Of a DNA stretch of 64,000 bases, positions 1 through 54,504 are shown one piece after another. Every line of letters begins with the position of its first letter. Within the stretch, counting starts at the first letter, position 1. The notes beneath the pieces were generated by a model. That model searched no databases. It saw nothing but the letters and a program-made list of their open reading frames with translations, and was not told the DNA's origin. A program made the translations under genes and the position numbers. The DNA comes from a virus: the IMG/VR virus record IMGVR_UViG_3300045988_012220, positions 38,228 through 102,227 of that record; one strand, 5' to 3'.

Positions 1-1925
1 GATGCCTTAACGGTTATACAGCTCCAGATGGAGAGGGTATAACTGGATACAACTACTTCTATCTAAATTATAGTCCAATCATGCGACTTAAGGAAGAAGA
101 GTATACTGATAGAGAGGGTAACCTTAGAAAGAGAAGATAGCGTATACTTGAATTCCCTAGTTTTTGGGACTATGATTACTATTATTTTTGCGCTATAGAA
201 CAAGCAGAGTTAGAAGGTAAACATATGGCTGTGCTTAAGTGTAGACAGAGAGGATACTCATTTAAGGGAGGATCGATGCTAGTTAGAAACTATATGCTTA
301 TACCAGGCTCGAAGAACTTTGCTATAGCATCAGAGTAGAAATTCCTTATAGGTGATGGTTTGTTAACTAAAGCCTGGCAAATAATGGACTTCCTTGATAA
401 ACATACAGCGTGGGCTAAACAAAGACTTGTGTCTACACGTATGGAAAGAACATCAGGTTATAAGATTACCGATGAGTTCGGTAAGTAGACTGAGCAAGGA
501 TACTTATCTAGCATAACAGGTATAACACTTAAGAACGACCCAGAGCGTGTGCGTGGTACTCGTGCTAAACTTGTACTATGGGAGGAGGGAGGTAAATTCC
601 CTAGTCTTCTTGATGCATGGCGTATAGAACAACCTTCAGTAGAAACCGACGATGGTAAAGCGTTCGGATTGATGATAGTTTTTGGAACTGGAGGTACCGA
701 GGGATCGTCTTTCGAAGGATTGAAAGAATTGTTTTATAAACCTAAATCTTACAATGTTCTCAGCTTTCCTAATATATGGGATGAAGGTAGAGAGAGTACA
801 GAATGCGGATTCTTTGTTCCAGCTTATTCAAACCTAGAATCATTCGATGATGATGGTAATTAGGTATATATGGACAAGGATGGTAATAGCTACAAAGAGA
901 AAGCTATAGAGAACCTTATAGATCAGAGGAATAAAGTAAAGGACGGTGGTGCTAGCTAGCAATCTATAGACCGTTTTATATCAGAGCGCCCTATAAAGCC
1001 AGCAGAGGCTGTATTGGAGCTTGGTAAGAACATATTCCCTAGAAAGTTATTGATGGACCAGCTAACAAGAATAAGGACCAATAAGAAGCTTCAAAGCATG
1101 AAGCATATAGTTGATCTAGAATGGGATGGGAATGGTCAGGTAAAGGCTACAGAAAAGCCTAGTGGGGATATAACTAACTATCCTCTTAAGAAGGGCGATA
1201 AGCCTCATGGATCTGTAGTTATATGGGAGTACCCAGTAAAGGATCCGCCGCATGGTTTATATATAGGAGGATGTGACCCATATGACCACGATGATAGCTT
1301 CACAAACTCACTTGGTTCTACATTCATATTTAAGCGTGTGAGAGCTGGTGAAGCTTGGACAGATGTAATAGTAGCAGAATATTCTGGAAGACCAGATACA
1401 GCAGAAGAGTACTATGAGAATGTACGCAAGCTACTTACGTTCTACAATGCTAGATTATTATTTGAGAATGAAAGAAAAGGAATCTACCCTTACTTTACGA
1501 ATAAACACTGCGATTACCTCCTGGCTGATTAGCCAGATAAAATCATATCTGAAGTCTTTAAAGACAGTAAAGTACAAAGAAGAAAAGGATGTCACATGAC
1601 CAAACAGATTAGGGCATATGGCGAAGGATTGATATTAGAGTGGCTATTAGATGAATTTGAAGAAGGTCACCCTAATGTAGAAAGAGTATACAGCGAACCT
1701 CTAATAGAAGAGCTTATAGAAAACGATGGTGTACGAAACGTAGACCGTGTTATAGCTTTATGTATGGTAATGATATACAGAGAGGAGCTCTATTAGGTAA
1801 AGGTGTCGTCTGCAAAAGAACAAAACAAATAGGTTGAACTCTTCGAGATGCCGTTATTTAGCAAACAATGGTTTGAAGAAGATAGCAGCACAAGTGAAGA
1901 CGGTATGCCGATATTCACATTTTAA
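1..1925 (+). CDS. terL: terminase large subunit, 5' end outside window (TAG read as sense)
   Basis: Frame 3 is open from the window edge to TAA 1923-1925 if 8 in-frame TAGs are sense codons. It joins track ORFs 549-863, 1014-1532 and 1596-1796, which share one frame. Content looks like a large terminase: a VLWEEGG segment and an acidic nuclease-type cluster GGCDPYDHDD. It lies directly upstream of a portal-sized gene. Confidence 0.8.
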
Positions 1926-1928
1926 TAC

Positions 1929-4412: not shown

Positions 4413-4414
4413 TT

Positions 4415-5437
4415 ATGAAGTTTGATAATAAGACATTTTAGCAGAAGTATGAGGCGTGGAAGAATGGCGCTGATTACTGGAAGGATATTAGAGGAATAAA
4501 CTTGGGTGGAGACGCCCAGGCTGAGGAACCTAGCCCAGAAGAGCAGTAGTAGATTGATTAGAATGTATAGTCTATACTTAATGCTTATAATGAAGGTAAA
4601 GATGTTAATATAGCTGAAGATATTATTAAACCATTACCTTTTGATACTCCATTAAATGAAGAACATCCAATACTGCACAAATACAAAGGAGGTAAAAATG
4701 ATTCTATTAATACTTTTGTTAACAGAATGGGCCCTCTTGTAGGACAATAGTTAAATAGATACGGATATGGCGATACTGCGTTTTACAATGTAATGCGTTA
4801 GCTTGCATATGAATCAAACTACGGAAGGTCAAGAGTCGCTAGACAATAGCATAATTATGGAGGAGTAGGATGGAACGGCAAGACTTACACTACATATAAG
4901 AGTGACGCAGATTTTGTTAAGGACTATGTGAGGCTTATGCATAATAGATACGGAGCTGCGCTTAGAGCCAAATCTACATAGGATTATGCAAGAGCCCTCA
5001 AGCAGAAGGGATATTATACAGATTCTCTAGAGAATTATTCTAGAAACCTTCGAGGAATGGATAGTTTAGTAAAGGCGGCTCATTACCACAGGAATGCACA
5101 TAAAGATGCTTACAATTATAATGTTAAGCTTGATGATCTTGTATAGGATTATGAAGACGCAAAGAATACTAGCCCTATAATTATTAATTCCCCTTCTACA
5201 AAGTAGCCTAGTACTGTCAGAGTAGATGTTCCAGCAACTTTACTTGGTCCTACTTAGGAAGAGATTAAGGCTTAGCAATAGCGCGATCTTGATAAGTATA
5301 AACAGTAGATGTATAATAATATAACATAGCCTTCACTTCCGAACATACTTGATCTACTTCCTTAGAATAACTTTGGTAAAGATTCTTATGGCTAGAAGTT
5401 CTGGTAGAGAAGAGGAAATAATCTTAAACTAATGTAA
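4415..5437 (+). CDS. virion-associated peptidoglycan hydrolase, glucosaminidase-like domain (340 aa)
   Basis: ATG 4415, TAA 5435-5437, 19 in-frame TAGs. The segment AYESNYGRS...NYGGVGWNGKTYTTYKSDADFVKDYVRLMHNRYGAAL...DYARALKQKGYYTDSLENYSRNL resembles the FlgJ/mannosyl-glycoprotein endo-beta-N-acetylglucosaminidase signature (GYATDP.Y type). This rests on recollection of the family. Confidence 0.55.
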
Positions 5438-5439
5438 TT

Positions 5440-7332: not shown

Positions 7333-7338
7333 ACATTA

Positions 7339-7357
7339 CACGGGTTCGACTCCCGTG
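7339..7357 (+). other. tRNA T-arm-like hairpin (cacggg ttcgact cccgtg), not a complete tRNA
   Basis: A 6-bp stem with a 7-nt TTCGACT loop lies 7 nt after the stop of the 5440-7332 gene. Its 17-nt core (7340-7356) matches the T arm of tRNA-like element 1 (58959-58975, - strand) at 16/17 positions. No partner for a 5' acceptor strand was found within 200 nt upstream. Confidence 0.5.
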
Positions 7358-7402
7358 TAGCGTACAACAATTAAAAATATTAACTTAGTTATAATTTAAA
7401 TT

Positions 7403-8599: not shown

Positions 8600-8617
8600 T
8601 GAGACAATTAACATATT

Positions 8618-9637
8618 ATGAATAATTCAAGTTCTTTATTAAATAATCTTCAGCTCTACCGTGGTAAGCGTTTTGCTGACTTGGTAGACGAAAACATGAT
8701 TGCTAATGCAATGCTTACAAAGCCTCATGAAGTAGCAGGCTTGTTGTCATTGGTTTTTGGTACAAAGGATGATGGTATTTCAACTACCATCGACTTGTTA
8801 ACTGGTGGTCTTGGTTCAACCATGACTATCGAAAACAGAGAGTATGAGTGGTCTGTAATGATTGATGCTGACCACGCTGTTAATATCCGCTACGCTAAGT
8901 GGAATGGTAAGGAGATTACTCCTAAGTCAATTACAGATGGTTTGACTCCAGGTATTAACAATACTCCTATTTATCTTGGTCTTGAGGAGAAGTTCTTCGG
9001 ACCTGGAGCAATCCTTGCATTTGATAACATCAACTTCCAGGTACGTGTAAACGGTACTCCATACCAGGATGGTAGCACATGGGTATATGAGACATATGTA
9101 GCAGAAGGCTTCCAGGGTTCTTATATCCCTTGTGAGTATTTGCTTCCAGGTCGTCAGGTAGACCGTATCGGTTCTGCATACGAGGAGTACAGTGATGAGG
9201 CAGATATCATCAACTATCAGACTCCATTTAAGATGCGTAATAGCTTGATGACTATGCGTCTTACTTACGATATCACAGGTGATGCTTACTCTACAGTATT
9301 GGCTATCGCTTTGACTGATCCTGAGACAGGTAAGAAGTCTTATTTGTGGTCTGACTATCAGTATTGGAAGGCTCTTCGTGAGTGGAAGAAGAGAGAGGAG
9401 AAGCAGTTGCTGTTCGCTCACTCTAACCGTAATGCAGATGGTACTTACAATTTGAAGGGTACTAATGGTCGGTTCGTTCCAATCTCTGCAGGTTTGTTCG
9501 AGCAGATTGCTCCAGCTAATGTACGTTACTACACCAAGCTGACTACAGAGTTGTTCGAGGATTACTTGTTCGACCTCTGCTATAACATTATCGGTACTAA
9601 CGAGCGTAAGTTCGTTGCTTTGACTGGTGAGATGGGT
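8618..9637 (+). CDS. major capsid protein, exon 1 (340 codons)
   Basis: This is an uninterrupted ORF with no TAG. It sits after the scaffold-like gene in the head module. The reading frame hits TAA at 9638-9640, exactly where a group I intron-like sequence begins (gggt|taa). Confidence 0.75.
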
Positions 9638-9908
9638 TAACTTTATAGCTCCCTGTAGCAGTAATGTTACTTGAAAATCTATTTAATTTCTGGGAAGCCC
9701 AAACGTTTAAGTCGTGGGTAATCAGAAGCGAAGTCTCGAAAGAGAAACGTTCAACGACTATCCGAAAGGAGTAGGGTTCAAGCGAACCCGAAATGATAGA
9801 CATCCTAATTGGGATGAAGATATAGTCTGATCTCATATGAAAGTATGAGGGCTTTTAATGATCGCAATAAAGCCAATCTGTAGTAGCGATACAGGTTAAA
9901 CATAAATG
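9638..9908 (+). ncRNA. group I self-splicing intron (271 nt, no ORF) in the capsid gene
   Basis: It contains gttcaacgactatc and gaagatatagtctgatctcat followed by a ctcat...atgag hairpin, and ends in aacataaatg. As I remember it, agatatagtctg plus a terminal acataatg matches the 3' core of the phage T4 td group I intron. The 5' junction gggt|taa also resembles td. The flanking ORFs join in frame (…TGEMG|IREFDRILKE…). Confidence 0.7.
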
Positions 9909-10421
9909 ATTAGAGAGTTCGATCGTATTTTGAAGGAGAAGGCAGCTAGCTTTAACATGATTGATACACACTTCATTACAGGTTCTGGTCAGGACTTGAA
10001 GTTGGGTGGTCAGTTCACAACTTACACTATGACCAATGGTATTGAGTTGACAGTTAAGCGTTGCGCTATGTTTGATAACATGGAGATGTTCCGTCAGCTT
10101 CATCCATTGACAGGTAAGCCATTGATGTCTTACACATTCTTGTTCGTTGACCTCGGTCGTCGTGACGGTCAGGCTAACATCGTTAAGGTATGTCGTAAGG
10201 GTCGTGAGTTCGTACAGTGGTGCACTGGTGGTTCTGTATTGCCAAATGGTTATGCAAACAACATCAACACTATGCGTTCTAACAGCCGTGATGGTTACCA
10301 GGTACACTTCCTTGGTGAAGAGGGCATCATGTTGAGAAACCCATTGTCATGCGGTATCTTGTACTGTGATGCTGAAGACCAGGAGTCTATTGCAGTTGAG
10401 AACAGAGCAGCAGAGCTCTAA
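9909..10421 (+). CDS. major capsid protein, exon 2 (170 codons plus TAA)
   Basis: Track ORF 9906-10421. Its apparent ATG (9906-9908) is preceded by in-frame TAA 9903-9905, and its G is the proposed terminal G of the intron. The exon has no TAG. Spliced product is 510 aa. Confidence 0.7.
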   Translation: MREFDRILKEKAASFNMIDTHFITGSGQDLKLGGQFTTYTMTNGIELTVKRCAMFDNMEMFRQLHPLTGKPLMSYTFLFVDLGRRDGQANIVKVCRKGREFVQWCTGGSVLPNGYANNINTMRSNSRDGYQVHFLGEEGIMLRNPLSCGILYCDAEDQESIAVENRAAEL

Positions 10422-10448
10422 TTAATTAAATAATATACAATGTTCAAC

Positions 10449-10468
10449 CCCACCCAATTTAGGGTGGG
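10449..10468 (+). terminator. hairpin after the capsid gene (cccaccc aattta gggtggg); weak terminator candidate
   Basis: A 7-bp GC-rich stem lies 28 nt after the MCP stop. No U-run follows it, so the function is uncertain. Confidence 0.3.
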
Positions 10469-10500
10469 AGCTTGGCATTGCAACAACTAATTGAAAAATT

Positions 10501-11253: not shown

Positions 11254-11267
11254 TAAACTAACGACGT

Positions 11268-11984: not shown

Positions 11985-12739
11985 CGCAAGAACAAACTAG
12001 AAAGCTTGGTATCGAGTTTGAAAGAAGGATAACAGAAATGTATCCACAGTTCGCAATACAAGACAAACTTGATACCGATACAATATATTCTTTTTTAAGT
12101 GAGTATCAATCCTAGTACGTCAAGACTTTATATGTAGCTGAAGGCTAGACACAAAGTGGTACTAGGCAAGATAATAAAATTCACGACATACTGTCTAATC
12201 TTATTAGGCACGAAGATATCAAACCTTCAAATGAAGTAGATAACTGCTAGTTGGAGTTTAATCTACCTGCAGATTATTCAATGTATATTACTTCATACAG
12301 TGTCGTAGATAGAACTTACAAAAGTAATAAAACCTTAAGTACGCCATTATATCTTGATAACGTAAATATTAAGCAGGATTTGGCTGTTAGGTTTTTAGAT
12401 GTAGCCTATAATCAGAAAGGAGTTCTGTAGAAGCCATTGGTAGTATTAGACTAGAATAATCAAAATACCACAATTAGACTTATACATGATACCTATACGC
12501 ATGTATAGAACATAAACCTTACATACTATTGTTACCCATACGCATTCAATGTGATGAAGTTTAACGACTAGGATAAATCAACTGGAGCTGTACATAGTTA
12601 TTGCGAACTGCCTTATGGCTGTTTTGAAGATATTGTTTCTGGAGCTGTAGACATGTACATAACTTAGTATAAGTTCAGATTACAATTAGGTAGTAAACAA
12701 CAATAGTAGAAACCACAACAAGAATAGGAGGATAAGTAA
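11981..12739 (+). CDS. structural-module protein, unknown function (252 aa)
   Basis: ATG 11981, TAA 12737-12739. There are 11 in-frame TAGs and no in-frame TAA/TGA (checked). No ORF of 60 aa or more was reported here because of TAG density. Confidence 0.75.
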
Positions 12740-13434
12740 TGATATATATAGACATATTGGTAAGTCTCGAAAGAGAAATTAATAAGTTTGACGACCCAGT
12801 ACAGAAGCCTTCTACAGATGAATCTTTATTCTGGCTTAATTAGGCTGTAGCCAAGTTTGTTAAAACTAGGTTTAATGGAGATATCGTTCACGGTACATCA
12901 TACGAATAGAATGAGAAGCGTAGAAGCGATTTAATTAAGCTGTATCAAACAATTAACTATCAAAGTGATAATATGTAGGTAGATGAGTCAGAACCGTCTT
13001 ACACTTCATATTACGCGCAATATCCTAGCGATTTTATGTTCGCTCTTAACGAAGATGTTGTTATATCTGATTTGCAAAACCACAATAAGATTAACACGTG
13101 TATGTTTGAGTGTACGCAGGATAGTTTTATGTATAGAATCAACAATAGTTTAACAGATTTCCATTATAGATATCACAGAGCTAGACCATTAAGAATTCGT
13201 GTTAATGATGGATGTAAGCTATTGACTGATAAGCAGTACAAAATATATAAGTATTCTTTAGGTTATTTGCGCAAGCCTAAAGAGATAACCCTCGAAAAAC
13301 CATATGATGAGTACAATGATTTCGAGGATATTATAATGCCTGAGATAATCAAAATAGCAGCACAGATGTATCTTGAAAACAAGAAAGATGAAAGATACAA
13401 AACTATTACTCAGGAAGTTAGTACTCAAGAATAA
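12739..13434 (+). CDS. structural-module protein, unknown function (231 aa)
   Basis: The ATG at 12739 overlaps the previous TAA (TAATG). There are 3 in-frame TAGs. It extends track ORF 13036-13434 upstream. An aggagg lies 7 nt upstream of the start. Confidence 0.75.
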
Positions 13435-13517
13435 GATAAGAATAATTTTAACGTGGAAAGCCCAGCTGGTTAGGTCCAGTATAATTAATTAGGGTGAGTA
13501 GAAAAAATTAATATATT

Positions 13518-14642: not shown

Positions 14643-14650
14643 TTTAAATA

Positions 14651-16057: not shown

Positions 16058-16062
16058 TAATT

Positions 16063-20557: not shown

Positions 20558-21208
20558 ATGAAGCAGCTAATTCAAACAATAAAGAAGAACTACAAGCTGC
20601 TGCTTAACGCTGTTTTAGGGCTTCTGATGGCCTTTTGTTTAGCGTCTGGTATATTCTACCACAACAAAGCTAATAGGCTCTCAGAAGAGCTTAAAATGGC
20701 TAATAACAACATCGAAGCCTATTAGGATGCCTTATATGGTGCCTAGTAGGCTTCTGGTGTTTTAAGACTAGATGCAAATAAGCTGTCAGAATATAATGAT
20801 AAGCTTGTATAGTAGATAGACTCTATTAGGAAGATACAGAAAGTCAAAAAGAACGAAATATAGGTAGCAGCAACTCAAAAGTAGATATTAAACGTTAATA
20901 AAAGTAATGGGGTAGGGGGTGATATTATAACAATTATTAAAGACTCTACTTATAAAGATAGTCTATAGTACAACCCTCTAACTAAAGTATACTATACAAT
21001 CGGTAAAGATAGTGTTAATATTAAGCTTGATGTATAGAATACATAGTACCTCTATATTTATAAGCATAGAGAATATAAGAATAAAAAGAACTTCTTTAAG
21101 AGACTTATAACATTTGATTGGAAAAAGAAAGATGTATATAAATACAAGATACATAATACAAACGATTTACTTAAAGAAGATAGTATTAAAATAATAGAAG
21201 CGATATGA
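20558..21208 (+). CDS. membrane-anchored coiled-coil protein, lysis/spanin-like candidate (216 aa)
   Basis: ATG 20558, TGA 21206-21208, 10 in-frame TAGs (checked). It has an N-terminal transmembrane segment LLLNAVLGLLMAFCLASGIFY followed by coiled-coil heptads. Confidence 0.55.
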
Positions 21209-21891
21209 ATTACTTTTCACTTAGAACATTAATAGATGATATTCTTCTTATTGTCCGCAATAACAACATAAGTGAAAGTGAGGATCTTTCAAGGGATTAG
21301 ATAGCGTCTTGGATAATACAGTATAAGACTTATCTACAAAAGAAGAAAGAGGATCAAGATAAAGAAAACGACGAAGACGAACCAGATGATTCACTGTAGT
21401 CGACTGTTGGTCCTATTGAATTAATTGTAGATAAAACAGAAAAGAATATAGACTGTGAAGATTGTTGCTGTGATATAATCAAGCGTACAAAAGATCAAAT
21501 ACATACAGTAAACAAGAGTACTGACGACATAGTTAGTGTATGTGATAAGAATGGTTGTGTTATACAGTATATGCATAAGCTTAGAAAGCATTATCATAAC
21601 TTTAGAAGATACACTTATGCAGAACCTGTATGCTGGTTTGATGACGGTTATATTTATGTAGAAGGAGATGTTGATTCAATAAACTCTGTATACATTACAG
21701 GATATATAGACGAATCTAAAACTGCTAATACAGAAGACGATATAACAATACCAGGTTGGATGATCCCTGACATAAAGAAAGCTATACTTACAAATGAGCT
21801 TGCGTTTATGATTAAGAGACCTAGTGATGATAGTAATAATTCAACATTAGCTAGTGTAAAACCAAATGGTCCTCAAGATAAGGAAGAATAA
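21205..21891 (+). CDS. structural-module protein, unknown function (228 aa)
   Basis: The ATG at 21205 overlaps the previous TGA (ATGA). There are 2 in-frame TAGs. It extends track ORF 21571-21891. Confidence 0.75.
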
Positions 21892-22333
21892 AAAGAGTTA
21901 TACGATCTCAGATATATATAGAGCGTATAATAAAATCAATGAGAACGTGCCATATTTGCGATATAAGCGCATATTGGACGAGTTTAATAAAGTTGTAAAG
22001 GATGAGATTTTAGAGCGCTCACAGCTGTTTAAAATGCCTTATGGGCTTGGTAGTATATGTATAGTAAAATACAAGCCAAAGTCATATACACCTAAATCAT
22101 TATCTGTAGATTACAAAACGTCTAGAGAAGAAGGTAAAAAGATATACCACTTAAACGAGCACTCTAATGGATACAAATACAGATTATACTGGACAAAGAT
22201 ACCTAGAACGTTTCCAAAAAGATATATGTATCAGATACAGTTTGTAAGAGATAACAAAAGGCATCTAGCACAACTTATATTCAATAAACAAGATTATATA
22301 AACATAAATGATATTCAAGTATACAAAATGTGA
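21866..22333 (+). CDS. hypothetical protein (155 aa)
   Basis: An uninterrupted ORF without TAG. It overlaps both neighbours by 26 nt and is basic. Confidence 0.6.
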   Translation: MVLKIRKNKKSYTISDIYRAYNKINENVPYLRYKRILDEFNKVVKDEILERSQLFKMPYGLGSICIVKYKPKSYTPKSLSVDYKTSREEGKKIYHLNEHSNGYKYRLYWTKIPRTFPKRYMYQIQFVRDNKRHLAQLIFNKQDYININDIQVYKM

Positions 22334-23171
22334 ATCTGTTATAGCCAAGATAATGGCTGATGCAGATATGTCGGAAAAGAATATTCGGGTCACAGATATA
22401 CGTGAATGGATATTCGAAGCTGTTGAAAAGATAGGTGCACCAGTATAGTATGTATAGAAGGAATCCGGAGATGATTGTGTTCCTGTATTTGAGATACATG
22501 AAAATCAAATACCTATACCAGATGATCTAGAATCTCTTACATCTGTAGCGTACTCATTAGATGGTACGAATTGGATGTAGGCAAGAAAGGATGAAAGTTC
22601 GTTTAAGCTAAAAGCAAACGCTCATAAGAATCCTAGCTATGATCCACAATAGCCACTTAGATAGCCTTTGATAACACATAGATCTTAGTTGCTAGGTATT
22701 AATGGTTCAACAGCTGTACTAAACGTATTAAACAACAAAAATATTAATGAGCCAACATATTGGATTAAACCTGGCTGGATAGTATTTAACAAAGATAAGG
22801 GCTTTGTAAAGCTTTCGTATAAAGCAATTGCTACCGACGAAAGAGGTTATCCTCTTATCCCTGATTTAGCCTCATATCAAGAAGCAATATACTGGTATGT
22901 AATGATGAAGCTTAGTTTTCCTAAGTTCTTAAAAGGATAGCTTGGCGGTAAAGTAAGATTTAGCTAGAATACTTATTTTTACATACAGCAGCAATGGAAC
23001 TTCTACAGAAATCAGGCATATGCAGAAGCAATGATGCCTAATGAAAGTGAGATGTCTTCAATAAAGAACGAATGGACAAAGCTTATTCCAGATTGGGATT
23101 CTGATGACACGCTGTTTAATAACGTTGGAAAGAGATAGTTAAACTTTAATGATTACTGCTATGGCTACTGA
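22308..23171 (+). CDS. structural-module protein, unknown function (287 aa)
   Basis: ATG 22308, TGA 23169-23171, 9 in-frame TAGs (checked). It extends track ORF 22689-22940. Confidence 0.7.
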
Positions 23172-44000: not shown

Positions 44001-44500
44001 TAGACGCTCTTACGTATAATCCATAGACATGCTCAATGAATGCGCCTATTGCGTCTACTGCTGATGCAAGTTGGATGGAGTCTATGCTTATATCTGCAGC
44101 TAATAAAGATATTATTGACATCATGACTCCTGGTAGCTCATTTATTCAGAGATCAGTCTTTGCTATAGAAGGTAAAAATGGCGAAGGTAATATATAGGGA
44201 CAGGAGATCTATAATGGTAAGAGATTATAGATGATAAATAAAGAGGGCTCTATGGATGCAGTAATATCTATAGATTACTTCCAGGATATTCTTCCGAAAA
44301 ACTTGTCTTACAACGAGGCTAGACAATGGCTCTTGGATCATAATATAATTGGAGAAAGTGCTACATCTAATACGATCGGTTATCGTATTCCTACACAGGC
44401 TCAGTCATCTATACATGCTTTACGTTTTGTAGATGTTGTACCTGCTGTCAAATCCACGGTAATACTTCCAACTGAGTTTACCAAGATCACTGGTTCGGAT
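32057..44500 (+). CDS. giant virion-RNA-polymerase-type protein, exon 1 (4,148 codons)
   Basis: ATG 32057. All track ORFs from 32993 to 44231 (16 of them) share frame 2. A line-by-line scan found no in-frame TAA/TGA, only TAG. It contains HEGFH (39902-39916). The exon ends …EFTKITGSD at 44500, where the intron-like sequence begins. Confidence 0.75.
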
Positions 44501-44761
44501 AAACTATATCAATGTTCAAACCAGTATAATATAAAAAACTCCTTTAATTGCTGGGAACTCCATATCAAGTGGACAATCAGCAGCCAAGCCCATTATGGGA
44601 AGGTTCAACGACTATCGAAATCATAGTATAAGAGAAACACTTATACGAAGAAGAGAGTAGAGTACACGAAAGTGGAAATGGGGAGCTTTTAGTATATGGT
44701 AATAGTATACTAATTGAAGATATAGTCTGATCTCATTGGTAACAATGAGTTAACAAAAATG
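44501..44761 (+). ncRNA. group I self-splicing intron (261 nt, no ORF) in the giant RNAP-type gene
   Basis: It shares gttcaacgactatc and gaagatatagtctgatctcat plus a ctcat...atgag hairpin with the capsid-gene intron, and ends in aaaaatg. In-frame TAA 44711-44713 blocks read-through. The exons join in frame as …ITGSD|FDIDHLY…. Confidence 0.7.
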
Positions 44762-47700
44762 TTTGATATCGACCATCTTTATTTAGCACGTTATAACGTT
44801 AATGAGAGTGGTGGTTATGAATTTGATCCAGAAAGTGCAGAAGGATTACAGAATAGTATTATCGAAAGCATTCTTACAGTACTTAAGGATAAAAAGTCAC
44901 TTAACATCTTGTATAAGTCTATCGATAATGATACTGAGCTTGTAACAAGCATAGCTGATGAAATCCCAGAACAGGGTAATACGAAGAGTGTAGCATACAA
45001 CTTTGGTACATTACATGAATAGGTTACTCGTAAAAATGACTACATTACAGGTAAGACTGGTATCGGTCCATTTGCGTTGAATGTAACAAACCATATTCTT
45101 ACAACATTATATGGCGTTAAATTTAAAGAGTCTAGCTTTACACAAATAACAGGTATTACTGGTTTTGATTAGATTCTTGACGAAGATAATAATCAGATTT
45201 CATCTTGGTTATCAGCATTTATTAATGCCCACGTAGATATTGTGAAAGATCCATATATATCTAAGCTTAATGTAAACGGATTTACGTACAATATGATTAA
45301 CTTGCTTGCTAGAAATGGCAAGGGTAAACAAGGTCTTTATTTCTTGTGTTAGCCTATAATTAGAGAGATGGCTAAAGCTGATATAGATACTAAGTCTCAG
45401 TTTACTAGAGATCCTAAGGTATTTAGATCTGCTTTCGAAATGAGGGATAAGAGATTAGCTGAAATATTCCCTAGCGTTACCGGTAAGACAATAGACGATT
45501 AGTATATTAAAGATGCTACAGAACTAAATAAATCTAAAGGCGAACCTGCTAGAAGGGCTGAGATAGTGAACTCTGTACTCAACAATATGGATATGCTTTA
45601 GAAGATAGCTAAGAATCCGGATTTAGTCTATGCTTAGACAGAAGAGGGAGAAAAAGCTAGAGCTTTCTAGGTTAATTGCTACATAGCATGGAAGTGCCTT
45701 GAAAAGTATTCTAATGCATTAAATAGTTTGGTACAGTACACTAAGATTGACACTCGTAAACAGGGTAAGAATTTCCTTGAAATGCAAGCTTATCTTAGAG
45801 GTTATGAGAATCTTACAAACCCAGAAACTGATTAGCTGTTTGATATGGATTCTATCAACAATCTTATACATGGTACTTGGATTGAGCAGAAAACAAGAGA
45901 CGCTATTCAAGAACCCATGAGAGTTATGGCTGGACAATCATTCTAGGGTACACCTTAGTTTATGGAGTAGCTTATCAATTTATCCGACGACTTTAAGTAT
46001 AAAACAAACGACAGAGAGTCTGATTTACTTAGAAATGCTAAGACTATGAAGAAAATATCATAGGCTGCTAGTAGTTAGATTAAGGCTAGATATGCTGTTA
46101 GATTAGCTAAATCTTTAGGTATTGATATTAAAGGTTTGTTCGACGGGAATGCTACAATATTTGACAGACTTAATTCTATATAGGCTTGCATACAGAGAGA
46201 TGCATATGGTTTAGGTAGATTAAAGGATAATTATCTATTATCGCATCTCGCTCCATATATTTAGGATTAGGATGTTTTCGTAAATGGAAAACTTACCAAT
46301 AAGCCTAAATTTATAAGTGTTATTAATAGTATGGATGAAAGTAAAATGTCTGCTGATATGTTTATAGAGTCTTGGGAAGAACTTCTCAATGACCAATAGG
46401 CTAATGTAAGAAGATTTGCAAATGATCTTATATTGTATGCAATGCTTACATCTGGTGACACAAAAGGCTTTAATAAAATAGCCAAATACATTCCTATGAG
46501 TTGGCTTGAAGTTAGACACGATGAGAGCACCGTACCATTCTCTGATTATATTAGGGAACAACTTGAGGCTCCGGAAATTGATCACGATCTTATAGCTTAG
46601 AACAACTATATGGATAGCGATTTGGTGAGCAGGGCTACATTCAAAGATTACTATTATGCTTTCAATGCTTAGTACTCTCCTGCTGTAATAATTAGTAAGG
46701 ATTCTCACGAACACGACGCTTTGTATATATCAGTACGAAATGATGGAGCGGTATATAGTGATCCAACGTCGTACACATTGTATAAAAAGGTTGGAGAAGC
46801 TATGATTAATGGATCCAAACGTGCTGTATATGCGTTATTACCTAAGAGGGGATGGTCCGATAGAGATGGTCTTAATATATACGAAGCAGGTGATATTAAT
46901 CTTAGTGTAAATGGCATTCCTATGAGTCAAGAAGTCATTGAAAGTCAGCTTGATAAACTTATGACTTACTTGAGCCAGATGAAGCCAAATATTACTGACG
47001 AGTAGCGCAATAACTGGATGTCGTGGTTTAATTAGATGTATTACAATGCTAATTCAGAATATCCTACAATATCACAAGCTGTAGAGCAGCAAAGCACACA
47101 AAGTGTTAGTAATATTAATCTTGATGGCAAAGGCCCTTCTGGATAGACTGTGTACATAAGCAAATAGTTATTCTATAAAGATTAGCCTCAACAACACCCA
47201 AATGTACAGTACGTGTTCACAGATAATGCTTAGTCTTATGCTAAGGCGCAAGGTTTACCTATGCAAGGTTTTGCTAATTATAACCCAGTATTAAATGTAA
47301 GTTCTGGCGCCACTGGTACAAATCAAGCTTGCATTAGAACTGGCAGCGACGGAAAGATTACACCTAACGCGTTTGGTCTTGTAGTAAAAGTTAATCAGCA
47401 AGATGCTTCTGGCAGATGGCTTGCTAAAGATGGTTGTTTCTAGGATAATCAAGGCGACATAATGGCGTTTAAGTCGTGGGTTAACCATATGCTTGCAAGA
47501 ATAGATAGAAATAAGCCAATAGTATTCCCATCATAGATAGCTCTTGGTAAAGCAGCTTTGCCTAGAGAGGCTGCAGAATGGCTTAGTTTACAATTGCTGT
47601 CAAGATTTAACATAAAATCAACAGTTTAGGAAAACACTAAAACTGGTTATACTGGCTATGGATTGTCTATAGAAGGCGTTGTGGATGATAATTATGCTAA

Positions 47701-47812
47701 CACACTAATTAAAGAAGAGTAGTAGAAGTAGGCTTTAGCATAGATTAATCTTACTAAGGAAGATATAGAAGAAGCTGAAAGAATTAGAAAACATTGCAAA
47801 GGAGGTAAATAA
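44762..47812 (+). CDS. giant virion-RNA-polymerase-type protein, exon 2 (1,016 codons plus TAA)
   Basis: It continues frame 2 through track ORFs 44759-45022, 46721-47005 and 47261-47443 to TAA 47810-47812. Only TAG interrupts the frame (checked). The spliced product is 5,164 aa with about 126 TAG codons. Confidence 0.75.
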
Positions 47813-50800
47813 TGAAAGAAATATGTCCTAATTTACATAATAAACAAGTAGCCAAAGAGTTTGGTGAATTAAAAGATTTGTTCGGTGAGGATACTGCGTA
47901 TTTACTCTGGAGCAAAAATAATGGATATAGTATAGATAAGGCACCAAATGGCGCCGACTCTATATTATTTGGAGAGTTGCTGAACGTTACCAATGGAGAT
48001 AGAATATAGGCTCTTATATTAAAAGCCAAAGTTTATTCAAACGAATTCCTTAACTGGTTTGGTGACTGGACATCTGAAGATAAAGAAAACGTATCTAAAG
48101 TTGTAGATAAGAATGGAGAGCCGTAGGTTACATATCACACAGTAAGCCCCGACCACTATTCTAATTTTAAGAAGTTTGACACAAATATCGAGGGGTTTAA
48201 AACAGCTATATATCATACAGATAGTATAGAGATGTCTATATCATATAATAAATATAAAGCAGAGAATTACGAAGAAATCAAAGACTATGATATAAGTACA
48301 TATAATACATATGTAGAAACAGCCAACAAGGAAATATTTGAAGCATTAAACGATATTAATAAAGATGATTTTTTAGACGAACGTAATTATGATTGGTTTC
48401 TAAAAAAGAAAGAAGAATTTTTATACTATATCAAAAACAAAGAACTAGGTAAAGCTGACGATATTCTTAAATCTTTTCGTGGTTTGCTAAAACAAAATAA
48501 AGAAACATTTGTTCTTATTGGCGACCCATTTAGTGACAAAGAACCTGATTTTGATACTTTTTATCAAACGAAGCTAGATGAATTAGAGCGGAGTTTTTAT
48601 ACTTTATATGATGCTGAGAAGAATTATAATCCTTATTATATAGAAAGAAAACTACAAACCCAAACATTCGATTATACTAAAATTGATTTTCTTAATATAA
48701 AGAATCCAAAAATAATTGATGCTAAAGGAAATAATTGGAACCACATTCCTGTTGGAAATAACAAGATTTTATCAACTAGAGATTTAGAGAAGTCGTATAT
48801 TACAACAAATTATTCTGATGCAGAAATAGCCGATTCTAGAGCAGAACTTTATATTAGATACAAAAATAAAGATTTCTCTAAATTCAATCTATATGGTATT
48901 ACTATTAGTATAAATAAAAACGGAGATGCTAATTTTTACACAAGAGACAATGTTATTACTATAAAAGGGTATTTGGACTTAGATACAAATCAGATAAAGT
49001 AGGAATATTAGAAAAACAACATATATTTTTATAATCAGGATTTTCATCGCGATGGCGTTATTATTAATAATGTTACTGATTACGGATCTCCAGTTGGGGA
49101 GTTATTACCACATACGGTATACGAATGCATTGATAATTCTCAAGTGAAATCCGCATTTAACAATGGACAGTTTGCTAATCCAGATGACATGTATGCATCT
49201 TCTCAAGGAGAATCCAATATGGGCGCATCCTCTAGATTATCTAATATTCCTAGTAAAGGGGATATATCTATATTGTAGCAGTATTTAAAGTCTCATAAAA
49301 GCGGTGTATCTAGTACAGCTTTAAAGCTTGTAATGACTGCTGTAAATAGATACTTTAATGATAAATAGACTGGAGTTACATACGAAATAGTAGATAACCT
49401 TCCTGGCGGAGAAGCAGCACATTATGATAGAGTTAACAAGGTTATTCGTATAAATAAGAATGCAAACTTTAGAAATGAAAGCAAATCTACTGCACCTGAA
49501 GTATAGACTATTGTTCACGAAATGCTTCATGCTGTTACAGAGTATGCGATTAGTAACGATTCTAGGATAAGGAAATCATTTACAGACCTCTACTAGAAAA
49601 CAAAGAAAGTTCTTGGGAAAGATGCGTAGGACTACGGTTTGAATGATGTATATGAATTTGTAGCAGAACTTAGCAATGCGCAATTTGTAGAAAAACTAAA
49701 GTCTATACAATATAATCGTAAACAAACGCTGTTTGAAAAGATTAAACAGACTATAAAGAAAATATATTCTTAGATATTTACAAGCTATAAAGACTTTATT
49801 GGTTCAGATAATGTGTACGAAGCTGCTGTTAACGATTTGTTTACAGTTATGTCTCACAACGAATAGAAGGAAGACAATATAACTGATAAAGAAGCTAAAG
49901 ACAGATTAGCTTCAATACAAGCTTCTGAAGACAAGGTTAATCAGATACATCATAGAATAACTGAGCTTTTCCAAGGGTTGTATAAGGACTATAAAAAATA
50001 GCTTAATAAGGGTGCCAATAGACAGCGTAGAGAAGACTAGGTGTGGTCTACAATATAGGAACTTAAGTCACAGGAAAAGAAAGAGTCTTCAAGAATAGCT
50101 ATACAATCTGCTTTAAAAACTATTGGTGTGTTCGCAAGAGATCCAATTAATAATACTATTTTGCAGGCTCGTAGAGATACTATTTTAGGCTTCTTGTAGG
50201 AATGCTAGAAGAATAATTTCGATAGCCTCACAGCTGAATAGATACACGATATGAAGTCTAATATTATAGACTTCTACAACGATCTTGTCAAAACATTGTC
50301 TGATAACTAGATGGATCTGGATGCTAGAGATCAAGCTGACGTCGATACGCTTAATGCCACTGTAAGACAGATTAATCAATTATGGAAAGATGCTGCACAA
50401 ATTGTAGCAGACAAAATAGTCGATGAAAATGTAGATAAATACATCAATGAATCTGAAGAAGAGAAGAATAAGATAAAGACTGTAGCTAAAGACTGGCTTC
50501 ATAAGAATGATATGTATGGAGACGAATCTAAACTTACATTATTCTTTAATTACTCTAGATAGAACAGTCCTATTATTCGCCAAGCGTTCTAGATGATATA
50601 GGATGCTGATCAGTAGACTAGAAAAGAGTCTCTACCGGTTATGTAGTAGATAGCAAAAGCTTTTGATAAAGCTAATTCCATCATAGATGATCTTACTCCA
50701 GGAAACTGGTAGACGATGTTGATGGAAAGGTATACAGACGGTCCTAAGAAAGGAGAGTTTACAGGCTTGTTTAGATCAGCTGTTAATAGAGGTTAGTTTA

Positions 50801-53800
50801 AACAAGACTAGGAAAATTTTAAAGAGAAGCTTAATAATGAATGGCAAGACAAATATGGTTATTTCTATTACAAAGATCCTATTACTGGAGAGACTTTAAG
50901 AAGTGATACAGAGTCATCAGTAGAAGAAGAGCAATGGATCGGAGATCAAGAACCAAACTATGTAACATATCAAAGAAGATACGAGGAATGGCTGTGTGAT
51001 CATGCACATAGAAGATATTCTAAGACATACTTTATGGAGCGCCTTAGTAAACCTTACGACCCAAAGACTAGAACTGGTCACGGTCTGTCTCCAAGAACGC
51101 TTTCTAGACAGCAATATATACAAGATCAACTTAACTATTTATTATAGAAATGTTCAGATAAGCAGACTGGTTTATCTTACCCAGAAAAGCTTAATCCGCA
51201 CGATTATCAGAAACTGTAGATGTGGAAGGATGCTTTACAAGATTTGGGTAATCCATTTGATCAAGAAGGCAACCTCAAAGAAGGCGATGAGTTACAAACA
51301 GCCCTTGAGATACAGTCTTGGAATAACTGGTTAGCTAAACAAACAGACTATTCTACAGATTTTGAGGAGTTTGATAAAGAGTATCAGAATATATTGAATT
51401 AGATTAAAGCAGGAGAAAAAACTGCATAGGACCTATATAAGTTTATTGATGCTAATTCAGAATATGGTATAAATCCAGAATACCTCGAATATATCTTTGA
51501 TAAAAACAAATCCGCTAAAGAAAGTCTATAGAGAATGTTCTAGAACTCAATGAAGAAGCTTATTAAAACAAAGAATGGCTTTGTTAAAGATTTCAGTAAT
51601 GTAATCTTCTCTGAACAGCCTGATGGTACGGTAAAAGTTCCAGATATGTGGTTCTATTCAAGATCTGCCGATATCAAAAATAATGAAGAGAACAATGCTA
51701 CTGGTATAGACCCAGAAGAATTTAGAGACGCTTTTGATATTAGAGAAGTTCCTTATACAGATCCTTCTGGAATGCAATTAGCTAAAGATGGTGTAACAAA
51801 ATTTGATCCACGTAATAATCCAAATGGCGTAGAGCCTATGTCGTGGTTTGAATATATACTTAAACAGTACACGGATGCAGCTCTTGATGGCAGAATGCCT
51901 AGATATGTATCGCTCGATGGTAAAATAGCGATAGACTTCTCTACACTTGGTGGCAATCGGTAGTCGGTAGAGAGATGGATAGCTGAGAATATTCTTATGT
52001 ATACAAAAACATGGGAAGGTAAGGATGGTTCTATGAAATCTAAGCAAGTTCCACTTACAATATTCTCTCAGATAATTCCTAGACACGCTACATTTGGAAA
52101 TAACTAGCCTACATCTAGATATATTCCTAAAGGTCGTTTTACAACAAAGAAAGGATCTTTTGGCTCTTCTATATACGACGACAAGTTCTACGATGGTGAT
52201 AGAAGTGGTTTGTAGCCAGACTTTGATAAGTATGGAGATAAGGATTTTGTTAAGTTTATATAGAAGGGTGACGCTAGAGCCTAGTATTACAATCTTCTTG
52301 TACAAACTATGGAATAGCAATGGGATAAGCTTGGACTTGATCCATCGTATAATAGATTTAAACTTCCGCAGATGGAGGGAACTTCTGATATGAAGAGATC
52401 TAGAGCTTTTGGTAGCCCTAAAAAGTTCATTAAGAATAAACTTCAAAACGCAACTGGTGCTACGTCTGATGATACAAATATGAGAGACGAAGGTGATTTT
52501 GTACAGCGTAATGGTAAGTGGGTTCTTAAGACTGCGCCAACACGCTTTATAAACGAAATGGAAGACCCTTCAATGATTAGCTCAGATTTAGCTTACACTG
52601 TTGGCATGTTTGTAAATATGGCTAACAACTTTGTAAATAAGTCTAAAGTACAAGCTAAGCTTGAGACATTGGGATATAACTTGTCTGATGAAACAAGAGA
52701 TTCTGAACATCAAGGAACTGGTACTAGATAGCAAGAACGATATGCCAAGATGTTAAAACAATTGTTTTATGAGTCTAGAGAAACGAACGATAATCCTGGA
52801 GAAAAGCCTTCGAAAAAAGCTATCGCAGCAGCAAAACTTGTAAATAAGACTAGGGGTGCTTCAGCTTATCTTATGCTTGCAGCTAACATACCTTCAATGT
52901 TTGTTGGTGTATGGGACTCTTTCACACAGATGCCAGCACAAGCTGCTAGAAATGATCAATTTGGTTTTAGAGACCTTATAAAAGCATACCTTTATACAGG
53001 ATTTGATCTTATGAAGGCTTTAGCTAATATTGGTAACCCTATAGCTAATTGTAAAGCTGTAGCTATGATGTAGAAAGATGGTCTCGTTAGAACAAATGAT
53101 GAGACATTTAAAGACATTTATCGCAATAGAATTACAAAGGCTTTAAAGCAATCAGCTACAGGAGGTTATACAATGGGCGATTATATGATGAACATGCTCG
53201 CACAAAGAGCTACATATAATGCCAAGAAATACTATCCAGGAAACACTGTTGTTAAAGAAGGTTTTTATACAAAGGCTGAGTTCGATAGATTAATGGTAAA
53301 TAGTGGTCTTACATAGAAAGAGATTAATAGGGAATGGAAAGATAACCATGGAGAATCTATGTGGAATGCTTACTATTTCGATCATGGTATAGCAAAGATT
53401 AAACCATCGTATACTAATGCCTAGATGTAGGACAGTAAGTTATCTGCTACCATACAGCAAACTATGGCATTGCTTAATGGTAACTCGCCAAAGAATGATC
53501 AATCAGCTGTTAGTAACAATGTCTTGCATAAATTCTTCTTCTTAATGCGTAACTTCTTTATACGTAGAGCAGAACATTGGTTTGCAGGATATACTTCAGA
53601 TAACGTTGTAAGAGAGATTGAATAGATAAAAGAAACTATGCAAAGAGGTGGTACAACAACCATTAAAACTAAAACTGTTCGTAAACCTCTAACAAATGAG
53701 TAGAAAGCACAGAGATGCATGTATGACTATAGTACTGGTGAAGCTAATCCAGCTGTATTAGTAAATCTTATGAGAGGAGCGCATACTCAGCTTAAATGGT

Positions 53801-54504
53801 TTAACCAGCAGATGTTTAATCGTCAAGCCACTATTACAGATCCGGTTAAATTTAACAAAAATGAAGTAAAATCTCTTAGAGAGTTTTTGACATGGGGGCT
53901 TTGTCTAGCATTACTTTCTGTAGGATGGATGGCGTTTCATAGATATGTATAGGACGATACAAAAGATCTTAAACCTAAGACTTATGAAGACTCTTTGCCT
54001 ACTGTAAAGAACTTTATAGACTAGAAGGTTTACCTCAGACTTATAGACCAGTGTATGTTCAGAACTATTGACTCACAATTTCAGTTGTACAATGTTTATT
54101 AGTTTGTAGATATGGTTAAATCCGCAACAACTGTAACATCTGCTGTAGAGAAATTCACGGAAGTACCTACAGCTATTGCTGATGCAGCCGGATTAACAGG
54201 AAATAATCCAACCGACATTATTTCGTCTGACTCAAAGTATAAATACTTCCCACGTTGGCAAAGATCTTTAATGACAGCCTCTGGAGTCCTTAACAATATA
54301 CAAACATGGGGCTCCAGTAGAGGTAACGATAAAGTAGGTAGATGGTACTTTGACAACACAGTGACAGGTACCGTGTTTAAGATGGGTGGATATACATGGA
54401 AAGGTGGCGAAGAAAAGAAATCTAGTTCTGGTAATGTGTTTAAAATGGCTCCAATGTAGCCGATGCCAAAAATGGCACCTATGGCACCAATGCCTGGATT
54501 TTAA
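47812..54504 (+). CDS. giant cargo/ejection-type protein with HEMLH zincin motif and C-terminal TM segments (2,230 aa)
   Basis: The ATG at 47812 overlaps the previous TAA and is preceded by aaggaggt. TAA 54502-54504. Nine track ORFs (47812 through 54112) share frame 1. All gaps were written out codon by codon: about 50 TAGs, no TAA/TGA. HEMLH lies at 49516-49530. Hydrophobic segments are ASAYLMLAANIPSMFVGVW and FLTWGLCLALLSVGWMAF. The tail reads KMAPMQPMPKMAPMAPMPGF. Confidence 0.75.

What the first reader, a model, noticed from the sequence alone, without database searches (positions are those of the whole stretch)
1..54504. TAG is a sense codon throughout the + strand late module
With TAG as a stop, the + strand breaks into more than 100 short same-frame ORF fragments. 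With TAG as sense, they fuse into 27 tightly packed genes. Their starts and stops show coupling signatures (ATGA, TAATG). All 27 terminate in TAA (18) or TGA (9), never TAG. By hand I counted about 380 in-frame TAGs. Examples: 8 in the terL fragment, 19 in portal, 14 in 5440-7332, 33 in 23149-27810, about 126 in 32057-47812 and about 50 in 47812-54504. I scanned each frame for in-frame TAA/TGA and found none. TAGs often sit inside Gln-rich runs, such as QQQQEYMAQQQEAHR-TAG-QQEQQ near 8222 and the Q-rich portal tail at 3930-4330. Glutamine is therefore the most likely meaning, as reported for some recoded crAss-like phages. Standard-code annotation of this window would be badly wrong.
Basis: partly seen in the sequence, partly recalled or inferred. 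Interest (0 to 1): 0.8.

Follow-up and report, generated by a model that had tools for sequence, protein, structure and literature searches.

The report
TAG-as-glutamine late genes, crAss-like phage
The late (virion and lysis) genes of this gut crAss-like phage really do read the stop codon TAG as glutamine, but this is a well-documented habit of this phage group and its closest reference genomes are already annotated that way.

Summary
On the + strand of 1-54504 there are 27 tightly packed genes (17,808 codons, 98% coding). They hold 385 in-frame TAG and no in-frame TAA or TGA, and all end in TAA (18) or TGA (9). Alignments to 13 phage genomes run straight through the TAG sites. Glutamine is by far the best-fitting residue, also when only relatives without in-frame TAG are used.

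The window is a Burzaovirus-like member of Crassvirales (Suoliviridae, the "Delta" group). It is 92% identical in DNA to RefSeq cr124_1 and cr7_1, whose CDS already contain in-frame TAG. TAG-to-Gln recoding of late genes in this group was published by Yutin 2021 and Borges 2021/22, and shown by metaproteomics by Peters 2022. The finding is therefore already known.

One detail was wrong. An in-frame TAA at 44711-13 lies inside a group I intron (44501-44761) that splits the catalytic DFDID motif of the virion RNA polymerase. A second intron (9638-9908) splits the capsid gene.

The one mildly new point lies outside the window. This genome's own tRNA(CUA), about 10 kb upstream, lacks the canonical D-loop and T-loop signatures and escapes ARAGORN and Rfam. 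It still keeps a covarying cloverleaf derived from Bacteroidales tRNA-Gln.

The parts
1..54504 (+). Late (packaging, virion, lysis, cargo) module read with TAG = Gln: 27 genes, 385 in-frame TAG, stops only TAA/TGA
3..1925 (+). terL, 5'-truncated by the window edge; 8 in-frame TAG
   Evidence: 98% aa identity to cr124_1 TerL over 640 aa; 51-54% to the non-recoded cr10_1 and cr1_1 over 621-634 aa
1929..4412 (+). Portal, 827 aa; 19 in-frame TAG
4415..5437 (+). Glucosaminidase-domain (lysozyme-type) protein; TAG supplies 19 of 27 Gln codons, among the three highest TAG shares in the window
   Evidence: Pfam PF01832, E 4.7e-9; codon counts
8618..9637 (+). Major capsid protein, exon 1 (no TAG, no CAA; all Gln codons are CAG)
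   Evidence: PF23898 Crass_capsid on the identical contig; alignment to the intronless cr124_1 MCP; codon counts
9638..9908 (+). Group I intron in the capsid gene (271 nt, no ORF of note); exon 1 ends in U, intron ends in G
   Evidence: Rfam RF00028, 93.2 bits, at 9628-9849; boundaries from the alignment to cr124_1
9909..10421 (+). Major capsid protein, exon 2
12739..13434 (+). CrAss_Ring_3_4 tail protein; 3 TAG
   Evidence: PF25710 on the identical or related contig
21205..23171 (+). Ring_2 (21205-21891), a TAG-free 155-aa gene (21866-22333) and Ring_1 (22308-23171) tail proteins
   Evidence: PF25702 and PF24228 on related contig L141
23149..27810 (+). Muzzle protein (crAss_MUZ), 1553 aa; 33 TAG
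   Evidence: PF25731 on related contig L141
32057..44500 (+). Giant 5164-aa virion protein, exon 1 (the spliced gene holds 126 TAG); its C-terminal part is the virion RNA polymerase
   Evidence: PDB 6VR4 (phi14:2 gp66 RNAP), E 2.6e-19
44501..44761 (+). Group I intron (261 nt) inserted in the RNAP catalytic motif TGSD|FDID; contains the in-frame TAA at 44711-13
   Evidence: Rfam RF00028, 87.1 bits; junction from the contiguous cr124_1 and gp66 sequences; a related contig has an uninterrupted 5163-aa gene
44762..47812 (+). Giant virion protein, exon 2
47812..54504 (+). 2230-aa virion or cargo protein; 50 TAG. The relatives' counterpart carries ART-PolyVal
   Evidence: PF18760 on related contigs
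54586..64000 (-). Replication/early block (DnaB_C, AAA_24 and AAA domains): 12 genes, 2697 codons, 0 TAG among 78 Gln codons, stops TAA/TGA only. It is readable under either code
   Evidence: Pfam on related contigs

Best explanation
The window is about 63% of a roughly 102-kb crAss-like phage genome (Crassvirales, Suoliviridae, Burzaovirus-like). Its late module is written in genetic code 15: TAG is read as glutamine and supplies 39% of the Gln codons there. The mechanism has four steps. (1) The phage carries, on the late-gene strand about 10 kb upstream of the window, a tRNA with anticodon CUA that descends from Bacteroidales-type tRNA-Gln. (2) The host GlnRS is presumed to charge it, as it does classical amber suppressors. 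(3) It out-competes RF1 at TAG once it has accumulated. (4) TAG-containing virion and lysis genes therefore yield full-length protein only then, while the TAG-free replication genes on the other strand are readable from the start. What is shown here: TAG is sense, its meaning is Gln, recoding is module-specific, and the tRNA(CUA) has Gln ancestry and a conserved fold. What is inferred: charging by GlnRS, competition with RF1, and the timing or regulatory role.
For: There are 385 in-frame TAG against 0 TAA/TGA in 17,808 codons, while the off-frames are full of all three. Homologue alignments are continuous through the TAG sites. Gln is the dominant aligned residue, mostly as CAA in Dulem42 and cr272_1, so the pattern is not a one-step mutational neighbour effect. 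The likelihood test favours Gln by at least 44 nats over every other residue. In reverse, relatives' TAG sites align to window Gln (37/87, 12/18 and 11/26). tRNA(CUA) genes are present in cr124_1, cr60_1 and cr125_1. In the window's own genome (100% identical contig) the syntenic site holds a CUA-anticodon RNA whose minimum-energy fold is a perfect cloverleaf. This RNA is conserved with 0-1 changes in 7 contigs whose flanks have diverged. It shares compensatory stem changes with the family: 97.6% of cells paired and 8 pairs with changes on both sides. The same acceptor and D-arm occur in 24 chromosomal tRNA-Gln (UUG/CUG), mostly from Bacteroidales. The minus-strand genes have 0 TAG among 78 Gln codons, against a 39% share on the + strand. 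In the literature, peptides with Gln at TAG were seen in two other crAss-like phages (PMC9523058), and late-gene recoding in Delta-group crAss-like phages is described (PMC7886860; 10.1101/2021.08.26.457843).
Against: There is no peptide evidence for this genome. The window holds no tRNA. The own-genome tRNA(CUA) candidate lacks G18G19 and T-Psi-C, has C33 in this isolate, and is rejected by ARAGORN and by the Rfam tRNA model, so it could be non-functional. About 12 kb of the genome was not sampled for other tRNAs. No phage GlnRS or RF2 was seen in the parts examined. The timing role is a published hypothesis and was not tested here.
Confidence: 0.93

Rival explanations
1. TAG is sense and means Gln, but the phage's own non-canonical tRNA(CUA) is a decayed pseudogene. 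Decoding would then depend on another suppressor: a host tRNA, a co-infecting phage, or an undetected gene in the unsampled ~12 kb.
For: ARAGORN and the Rfam tRNA model both reject it. The D-loop has no GG, the T-loop is AUGGACA and position 33 is C. This genome also holds other degenerate tRNA-like elements. Yutin 2021 notes recoded genomes with no detectable suppressor.
Against: The 74-nt element is nearly invariant in 7 contigs whose flanks are 80-97% identical or unalignable. Four stem pairs differ from the cr124_1 tRNA by double compensatory changes, and every stem still pairs. The minimum-energy fold is an exact cloverleaf. No other CUA tRNA and no copy of the motif was found in the 8.5 kb beyond the window end in 10 related contigs, nor in the nearly complete cr124_1 genome outside the syntenic site.
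Confidence: 0.2
2. TAG encodes an amino acid other than glutamine (pyrrolysine, Lys, Glu, Tyr, Trp, Leu or Ser).
For: ARAGORN labels CUA tRNAs 'Pyl' by default. The own-genome tRNA shares with tRNA-Pyl a 5-nt D-loop and the lack of G18G19 and T-Psi-C (the tRNA-Pyl features are from my own knowledge). Glu and Lys are the next most frequent aligned residues.
Against: Gln beats Glu by 44-378 nats and Lys by 85-418 nats. CAA and CAG are the main replacement codons in close relatives. The tRNA has tRNA-Gln ancestry in its acceptor, D-arm and T-arm. It keeps two bases between the acceptor and D stems, a 5-bp anticodon stem and a 4-nt variable loop, unlike tRNA-Pyl. Published peptides show Gln (PMC9523058).
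Confidence: 0.02
3. The TAGs are true stops: the module is fragmented, pseudogenised or mis-assembled, or relies on rare read-through.
For: The standard code gives many ORFs of at least 30 aa in the same frames. At least one GenBank record is annotated that way.
Against: There are zero TAA/TGA in 17,808 codons. Full-length homology holds across the TAGs. Thousands of near-identical full-length portals exist in public assemblies, including a 100% identical independent contig. A gene with 126 TAGs could not be made by inefficient read-through.
Confidence: 0.01

Closest known systems
Burzaovirus faecalis cr124_1 (NC_055899) and Burzaovirus coli cr7_1 (NC_055895), Suoliviridae / Oafivirinae ('Delta' crAss-like group; Yutin et al. 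2021)
   Same: About 92% DNA identity over window 1-11470. Same gene order. Their RefSeq CDS already contain in-frame TAG: 8 in terL, 15 in portal and up to 60 in one gene. The capsid gene is TAG-free in both. cr124_1 has a tRNA(CUA), annotated tRNA-Gln, upstream of terL on the late strand.
   Different: Beyond about 11.5 kb the tail and cargo genes diverge (23-83% aa identity). cr124_1 and cr7_1 lack the capsid intron and cr124_1 lacks the RNAP intron. Their suppressor tRNA is canonical, whereas this genome's version lacks the canonical D-loop and T-loop signatures.
[quoted passage not shown] (10.1101/2021.08.26.457843), and the two crAss-like phages validated by metaproteomics in Peters et al. 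2022 (PMC9523058)
   Same: Structural and lysis genes form one alternatively coded unit and replication genes use the standard code. A lysozyme-type gene prefers TAG over CAA/CAG; here the glucosaminidase gene 4415-5437 has 19 of 27. A suppressor tRNA is predicted.
   Different: No proteomics exists for this genome, and I did not test whether it belongs to exactly their clade.
Classical amber suppressor supE (tRNA-Gln with anticodon CUA) in E. coli (own knowledge)
   Same: A tRNA-Gln body with a CUA anticodon, inserting Gln at UAG, presumably charged by GlnRS, which reads U35 and a weak 1-72 pair. The family here has U1-A72 or a mismatch at that pair.
   Different: It is phage-encoded and deployed genome-wide on about 400 sites rather than as a weak suppressor. 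The variant in this genome has a remodelled elbow.
Group I introns in core genes of Delta-group crAss-like phages (Yutin et al. 2021, PMC7886860)
   Same: An intron in the MCP gene, as that paper reports for the Delta group. Both introns exceed the Rfam RF00028 gathering score.
   Different: Both introns here are short (271 and 261 nt) and lack a homing-endonuclease ORF. The second sits in the RNAP catalytic DFDID motif, a site not named in the passages I read.

Membership tests
Code-15 (TAG to Gln) late-gene recoding of crAss-like phages | In-frame TAG, but no TAA/TGA, in recognisable conserved late genes (TerL, portal, tail, RNAP) | tested here: met
   385 TAG and 0 TAA/TGA in 27 genes; homology to TerL, portal, MCP, muzzle and RNAP
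Code-15 (TAG to Gln) late-gene recoding of crAss-like phages | TAG positions correspond to glutamine in homologues | tested here: met
   Gln is the top residue in 9 of the 10 relatives within Suoliviridae (second to Glu in cr60_1 and ProJPt-Bp1); log-likelihood margin of at least 44 nats
Code-15 (TAG to Gln) late-gene recoding of crAss-like phages | Phage-encoded suppressor tRNA with anticodon CUA | tested here: inconclusive
   None in the window. A canonical one is present in cr124_1, cr60_1 and cr125_1. The window's own genome has a conserved but non-canonical CUA cloverleaf at the syntenic site, outside the window.
Code-15 (TAG to Gln) late-gene recoding of crAss-like phages | Early/replication genes compatible with the standard code | tested here: met
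   12 minus-strand genes have 0 in-frame TAG, and none ends in TAG
Code-15 (TAG to Gln) late-gene recoding of crAss-like phages | Peptides carrying Gln at TAG-encoded positions | not testable with these tools
   Shown for two other crAss-like phages only (PMC9523058)
Crassvirales / Suoliviridae (Burzaovirus-like) | Sequence relatedness of TerL, portal and MCP, and shared gene order, with classified members | tested here: met
   92% nt identity to NC_055899 and NC_055895; 94-99% aa identity for TerL, portal and MCP; taxonomy lines of those records. Species or genus demarcation was not computed.
Group I self-splicing intron (Rfam RF00028) | Covariance-model score above gathering, U at the end of the 5' exon, terminal G, and an intronless allele in relatives | tested here: met
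   93.2 and 87.1 bits against a gathering score of 50; junctions and intronless alleles. Splicing itself was not tested.
Pyrrolysine decoding of UAG | tRNA-Pyl architecture (6-bp anticodon stem, 3-nt variable loop, one base between acceptor and D stems) and TAG aligning with Lys-like positions | tested here: not met
   5-bp anticodon stem, 4-nt variable loop and two linker bases; Lys is 85 nats or more worse than Gln; tRNA-Gln ancestry. No search for pylS or pylBCD was made.

The most novel reading that the evidence does not exclude
In this species-level lineage the amber-suppressor tRNA has lost the near-universal elbow signatures yet remains the working decoder of about 400 TAG codons. The G18G19 of the D-loop is gone, the T-Psi-C loop reads AUGGACA, and in this isolate U33 is replaced by C33. 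A CC (D-loop) with GG (T-loop) kissing pair may replace the canonical G19-C56 / G18-Psi55 contacts. This would be a concrete case of the 'extremely divergent suppressor that escapes detection' that Yutin 2021 and Borges 2021 only postulated. It would help explain why only 35-40% of recoded phages appear to carry a suppressor.
Probability: 0.5. Interest if true: 0.45.

Novelty: already known. Interest (0 to 1): 0.2.

Why it matters
For annotation the matter is practical. Anyone calling genes on this window with table 11 gets about 400 fragments instead of 27 genes, misses a 5164-aa RNAP-containing protein, and mislabels the two intron-split genes; such records do exist in GenBank. Scientifically the recoding itself adds nothing new, because it is published, validated by proteomics in related phages, and already built into the RefSeq records of this genus and into the public protein databases. 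The residual value lies in the non-canonical tRNA(CUA). It shows that absence of a suppressor call by ARAGORN or Rfam is weak evidence that a recoded phage lacks one.

Tried and rejected
(1) The portal search in the 5.8-billion-protein database gave more than 8000 near-identical 827-aa proteins with Q at 2277 of 2280 TAG positions. I rejected this as evidence because those translations already assume code 15. I used DNA of GenBank phages with my own X-masked translation instead.

(2) I looked for the suppressor tRNA in the window, in L015 and in L016 with ARAGORN and found none.

(3) An exact-pattern walk upstream in IMG/VR found nothing. The walk succeeded through a neighbouring protein.

(4) I tried to reach the rest of the window's own genome from the minus-strand end. 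One look-up failed because that gene runs off the window. The others returned relatives of 93-97% identity rather than the identical contig. About 12 kb of the genome therefore stays unsampled.

(5) A Pfam scan of the C-terminal 2564 aa of the giant protein gave no hit. A PDB sequence search did identify the RNAP.

(6) The pyrrolysine reading prompted by ARAGORN's 'tRNA-Pyl' label was rejected.

(7) I did not build a family-specific covariance model for the variant tRNA. The training set was selected by the same 5' motif, so the score would have been circular.


Full report
**1. Checking the observation**

Treating only TAA and TGA as stops raises the longest + strand ORF from 412 aa to 4219 aa. 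The summed length of ORFs of at least 100 aa rises from 7,929 to 21,504 aa. No other single-stop reassignment, and neither reassignment on the minus strand, has a comparable effect.

A curated list gives 27 + strand genes between 3 and 54504. Together they hold 17,808 codons and 385 in-frame TAG. They hold no in-frame TAA or TGA, and coding density is 98.2%. The two off-frames of the same genes contain 443/1249 TAA and 197/799 TGA, so the clean frame cannot be chance.

All 27 genes end in TAA (18) or TGA (9). The ATGA and TAATG overlaps and the Gln-rich contexts are also there. Under the standard code the genes fall into 412 pieces.

**2. One correction: two introns**

The frame of 32057-47812 does contain an in-frame TAA at 44711-44713. 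Rfam finds two group I introns above the gathering score, at 9628-9849 (93.2 bits) and 44464-44749 (87.1 bits).

- *Capsid intron.* Alignment to the intronless capsid gene of cr124_1 places the first intron at 9638-9908. Exon 1 ends in U and the intron ends in G. This joins the ORFs 8618-9640 and 9906-10421 into one capsid protein.
- *RNA polymerase intron.* cr124_1 has a contiguous ...TGSDFDIDKL... where the window has ...TGSD, 261 nt, then FDIDHL.... The intron is therefore 44501-44761 and the TAA lies inside it. The spliced product is 5164 aa, and a related contig carries an uninterrupted 5163-aa gene.
- *Function of the split gene.* The C-terminal part of the giant protein matches the virion RNA polymerase gp66 of phage phi14:2 (PDB 6VR4, E 2.6e-19). 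The alignment runs across the junction at the catalytic TGSDFDID motif.

**3. What the window is**

Megablast finds about 92% identity over window 1-11470 to RefSeq NC_055899 (cr124_1, Burzaovirus faecalis) and NC_055895 (cr7_1, Burzaovirus coli). Both are Crassvirales, Suoliviridae, Oafivirinae.

An ENA contig of 102,161 bp is 100% identical to the window over the 14.4 kb compared. The window therefore covers roughly 63% of a ~102-kb genome.

Pfam hits on identical or related contigs label the following genes:
- the capsid gene and the Ring 1, Ring 2 and Ring 3/4 tail proteins;
- the muzzle protein;
- an ART-PolyVal cargo protein;
- a glucosaminidase at 4415-5437.

**4. What TAG means**

The big protein database already translates these genes with Q at TAG, so it is circular evidence. 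I instead fetched DNA for 13 GenBank phages, translated it myself with X at TAG, and aligned it to the window proteins.

The alignments run through the TAG sites without breaking. For example, TerL aligns over 585-640 aa and portal over 812-859 aa against relatives that have no in-frame TAG at all. These are cr10_1, cr1_1, Fpv1, phi14:2 and crAss001 for both proteins, and ProJPt-Bp1 for portal.

Residues aligned to window TAG positions:

| Relative | Gln / aligned non-TAG sites | Note |
|---|---|---|
| cr7_1 | 16/21 | |
| Dulem virus 42 | 22/30 | 18 CAA, 4 CAG |
| cr272_1 | 16/28 | 12 CAA |
| cr118_1 (non-recoded) | 11/32 | |
| cr10_1 (non-recoded) | 9/32 | |
| cr1_1 (non-recoded) | 8/30 | |

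CAA is two mutational steps from TAG, so this is not a mutational-neighbour artefact.

A likelihood comparison used each genome's own substitution profile. Gln ranks first and Glu second, 44 nats behind with non-recoded homologues only (n=183) and 378 nats behind with all (n=403). Conversely, the relatives' TAG codons align mostly with window Gln.

**5. Recoding is confined to the late module**

TAG supplies 38.7% of Gln codons in the + strand genes. It supplies 0 of 78 in the 12 minus-strand replication genes, none of which ends in TAG either. From these counts the chance of 0/78 at a 38.7% share is about 3e-17.

Within the late module the share varies strongly:
- The capsid gene has 0 TAG, 0 CAA and 16 CAG. 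Gene 13518-14642 has 0, 0 and 14. The chance of 0/30 at a 38.7% share is about 4e-7.
- The glucosaminidase gene uses TAG for 19 of 27 Gln codons. Genes 20558-21208 and 27801-28718 each use it for 10 of 14.

This matches the published pattern that a lysozyme-type gene prefers TAG in ~105-kb recoded crAss-like phages (10.1101/2021.08.26.457843).

**6. The decoder**

The window has no tRNA. Among relatives:
- cr124_1 has a tRNA(CUA), annotated tRNA-Gln, on the late strand about 7.5 kb upstream of terL.
- cr60_1 and cr125_1 have one immediately upstream of terL.

*The own-genome candidate.* I walked upstream in the window's own genome. ARAGORN finds only a tRNA-Met there. Rfam adds one odd tRNA-like element.

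At the syntenic spot (L023 6899-6971, about 10.2 kb before window base 1) lies a clear homologue of the cr124_1 suppressor. Its minimum-energy fold is an exact cloverleaf with anticodon CUA. However, the D-loop lacks GG, the T-loop is AUGGACA instead of UUCGAAU, and position 33 is C.

*Conservation.* The element is nearly invariant in 7 contigs whose flanks have diverged. In an alignment with canonical CUA and Gln tRNAs, 97.6% of cells pair and 8 pairs show changes on both sides. The slid-partner controls fall to 40-50% paired.

*Ancestry.* The acceptor plus D-arm motif is shared by 94 phage tRNA(CUA) instances in IMG/VR. It is also shared by 24 chromosomal tRNA-Gln (UUG/CUG), mostly from Bacteroidales and Prevotellaceae. 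Some of these also share the T-arm with the cr124_1 suppressor. The suppressor is thus a tRNA-Gln derivative, which fits Gln insertion by the host GlnRS. That charging step is an inference.

**7. Comparison with what is known**

- Yutin et al. 2021 report TAG-to-Gln reassignment, mostly in late genes, for Beta, Delta and Zeta crAss-like phages. They also report suppressor tRNAs, group I introns in Delta-group MCP genes, and the possibility of suppressors too divergent to detect (PMC7886860).
- Borges et al. describe the code-switch model and the TAG bias of lysis genes.
- Peters et al. 2022 detected peptides with Gln at TAG in two crAss-like phages (PMC9523058).
- The RefSeq CDS of cr124_1 already contain in-frame TAG.

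The finding is therefore correct but already known.

**8. Verdict**

Novelty is nil for the recoding itself. Two ORF-less group I introns, one of them in the RNAP active-site motif, and a non-canonical but conserved tRNA(CUA) are the only points beyond the published picture. Interest is 0.2.

Noticed in passing
window 44501-44761: A 261-nt group I intron with no ORF sits exactly inside the catalytic TGSD|FDID metal-binding motif of the virion RNA polymerase part of a 5164-aa gene. Its length is a multiple of 3, and it carries the only in-frame TAA of that reading frame.
   Followed up: yes
window 9638-9908: A 271-nt group I intron with no homing endonuclease splits the major capsid gene. cr124_1 and cr7_1 lack it, while Dulem virus 42 has endonuclease-bearing insertions in the same gene.
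   Followed up: yes
L023 6899-6971 (same genome, about 10.2 kb upstream of window base 1): A tRNA(CUA) homologue forms a perfect cloverleaf but lacks G18G19 and has T-loop AUGGACA and C33 (U33 in two sister contigs). ARAGORN and the Rfam tRNA model both miss it. CC in the D-loop and GG in the T-loop could form a substitute elbow contact.
   Followed up: partly
L023 6451-6524: A tRNA-like gene (Rfam tRNA, 37.9 bits) has only a 3-bp anticodon stem and an 8-nt loop GAUAUAAA. ARAGORN does not call it. A normal tRNA-Met(CAU) lies at 6675-6746, between it and the CUA element.
   Followed up: no
window 58650-59550, minus strand: A gene-free 0.9-kb gap next to the primase-side genes holds three GGTTCGATTCC T-arm-like motifs and a weak tmRNA-like hit (58948-59030, E 1.3e-5, below gathering). 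At this spot relatives carry ordinary tRNAs (tRNA-Val x2 in cr124_1, tRNA-Ser in L138). cr124_1 also has an ARAGORN-called permuted tmRNA elsewhere (L014 34357-34713).
   Followed up: partly
window 8618-10421, 13518-14642 versus 4415-5437, 20558-21208, 27801-28718: TAG use is very uneven. The capsid gene and gene 13518-14642 use only CAG for Gln (0 TAG, 0 CAA). The glucosaminidase gene and two small genes use TAG for about 70% of Gln codons. This is consistent with TAG being avoided where output must be highest and favoured in lysis-related genes.
   Followed up: partly
L003 (GenBank PP511876, Dulem virus 42) 1-11198: A deposited relative is annotated in the standard code, with terminase in four CDS, portal in two and the capsid gene in three.
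   Followed up: yes
L165, L181, L153, L182 and others (genome contigs): Contigs of about 100 kb carrying tRNA(CUA) are filed inside bacterial MAG bins (Segatella copri, Bacilli, Sphaerochaeta and others). They are most likely mis-binned recoded crAss-like phage genomes. The Segatella bins may hint at the host.
   Followed up: no
window 7339-7357 and 20346-20557: A hairpin with a tRNA T-arm-like sequence (CACGGGTTCGACTCCCGTG) follows gene 5440-7332. Separately, a 212-nt gene-free stretch lies between 19542-20345 and 20558-21208 in an otherwise gap-free module.
   Followed up: no
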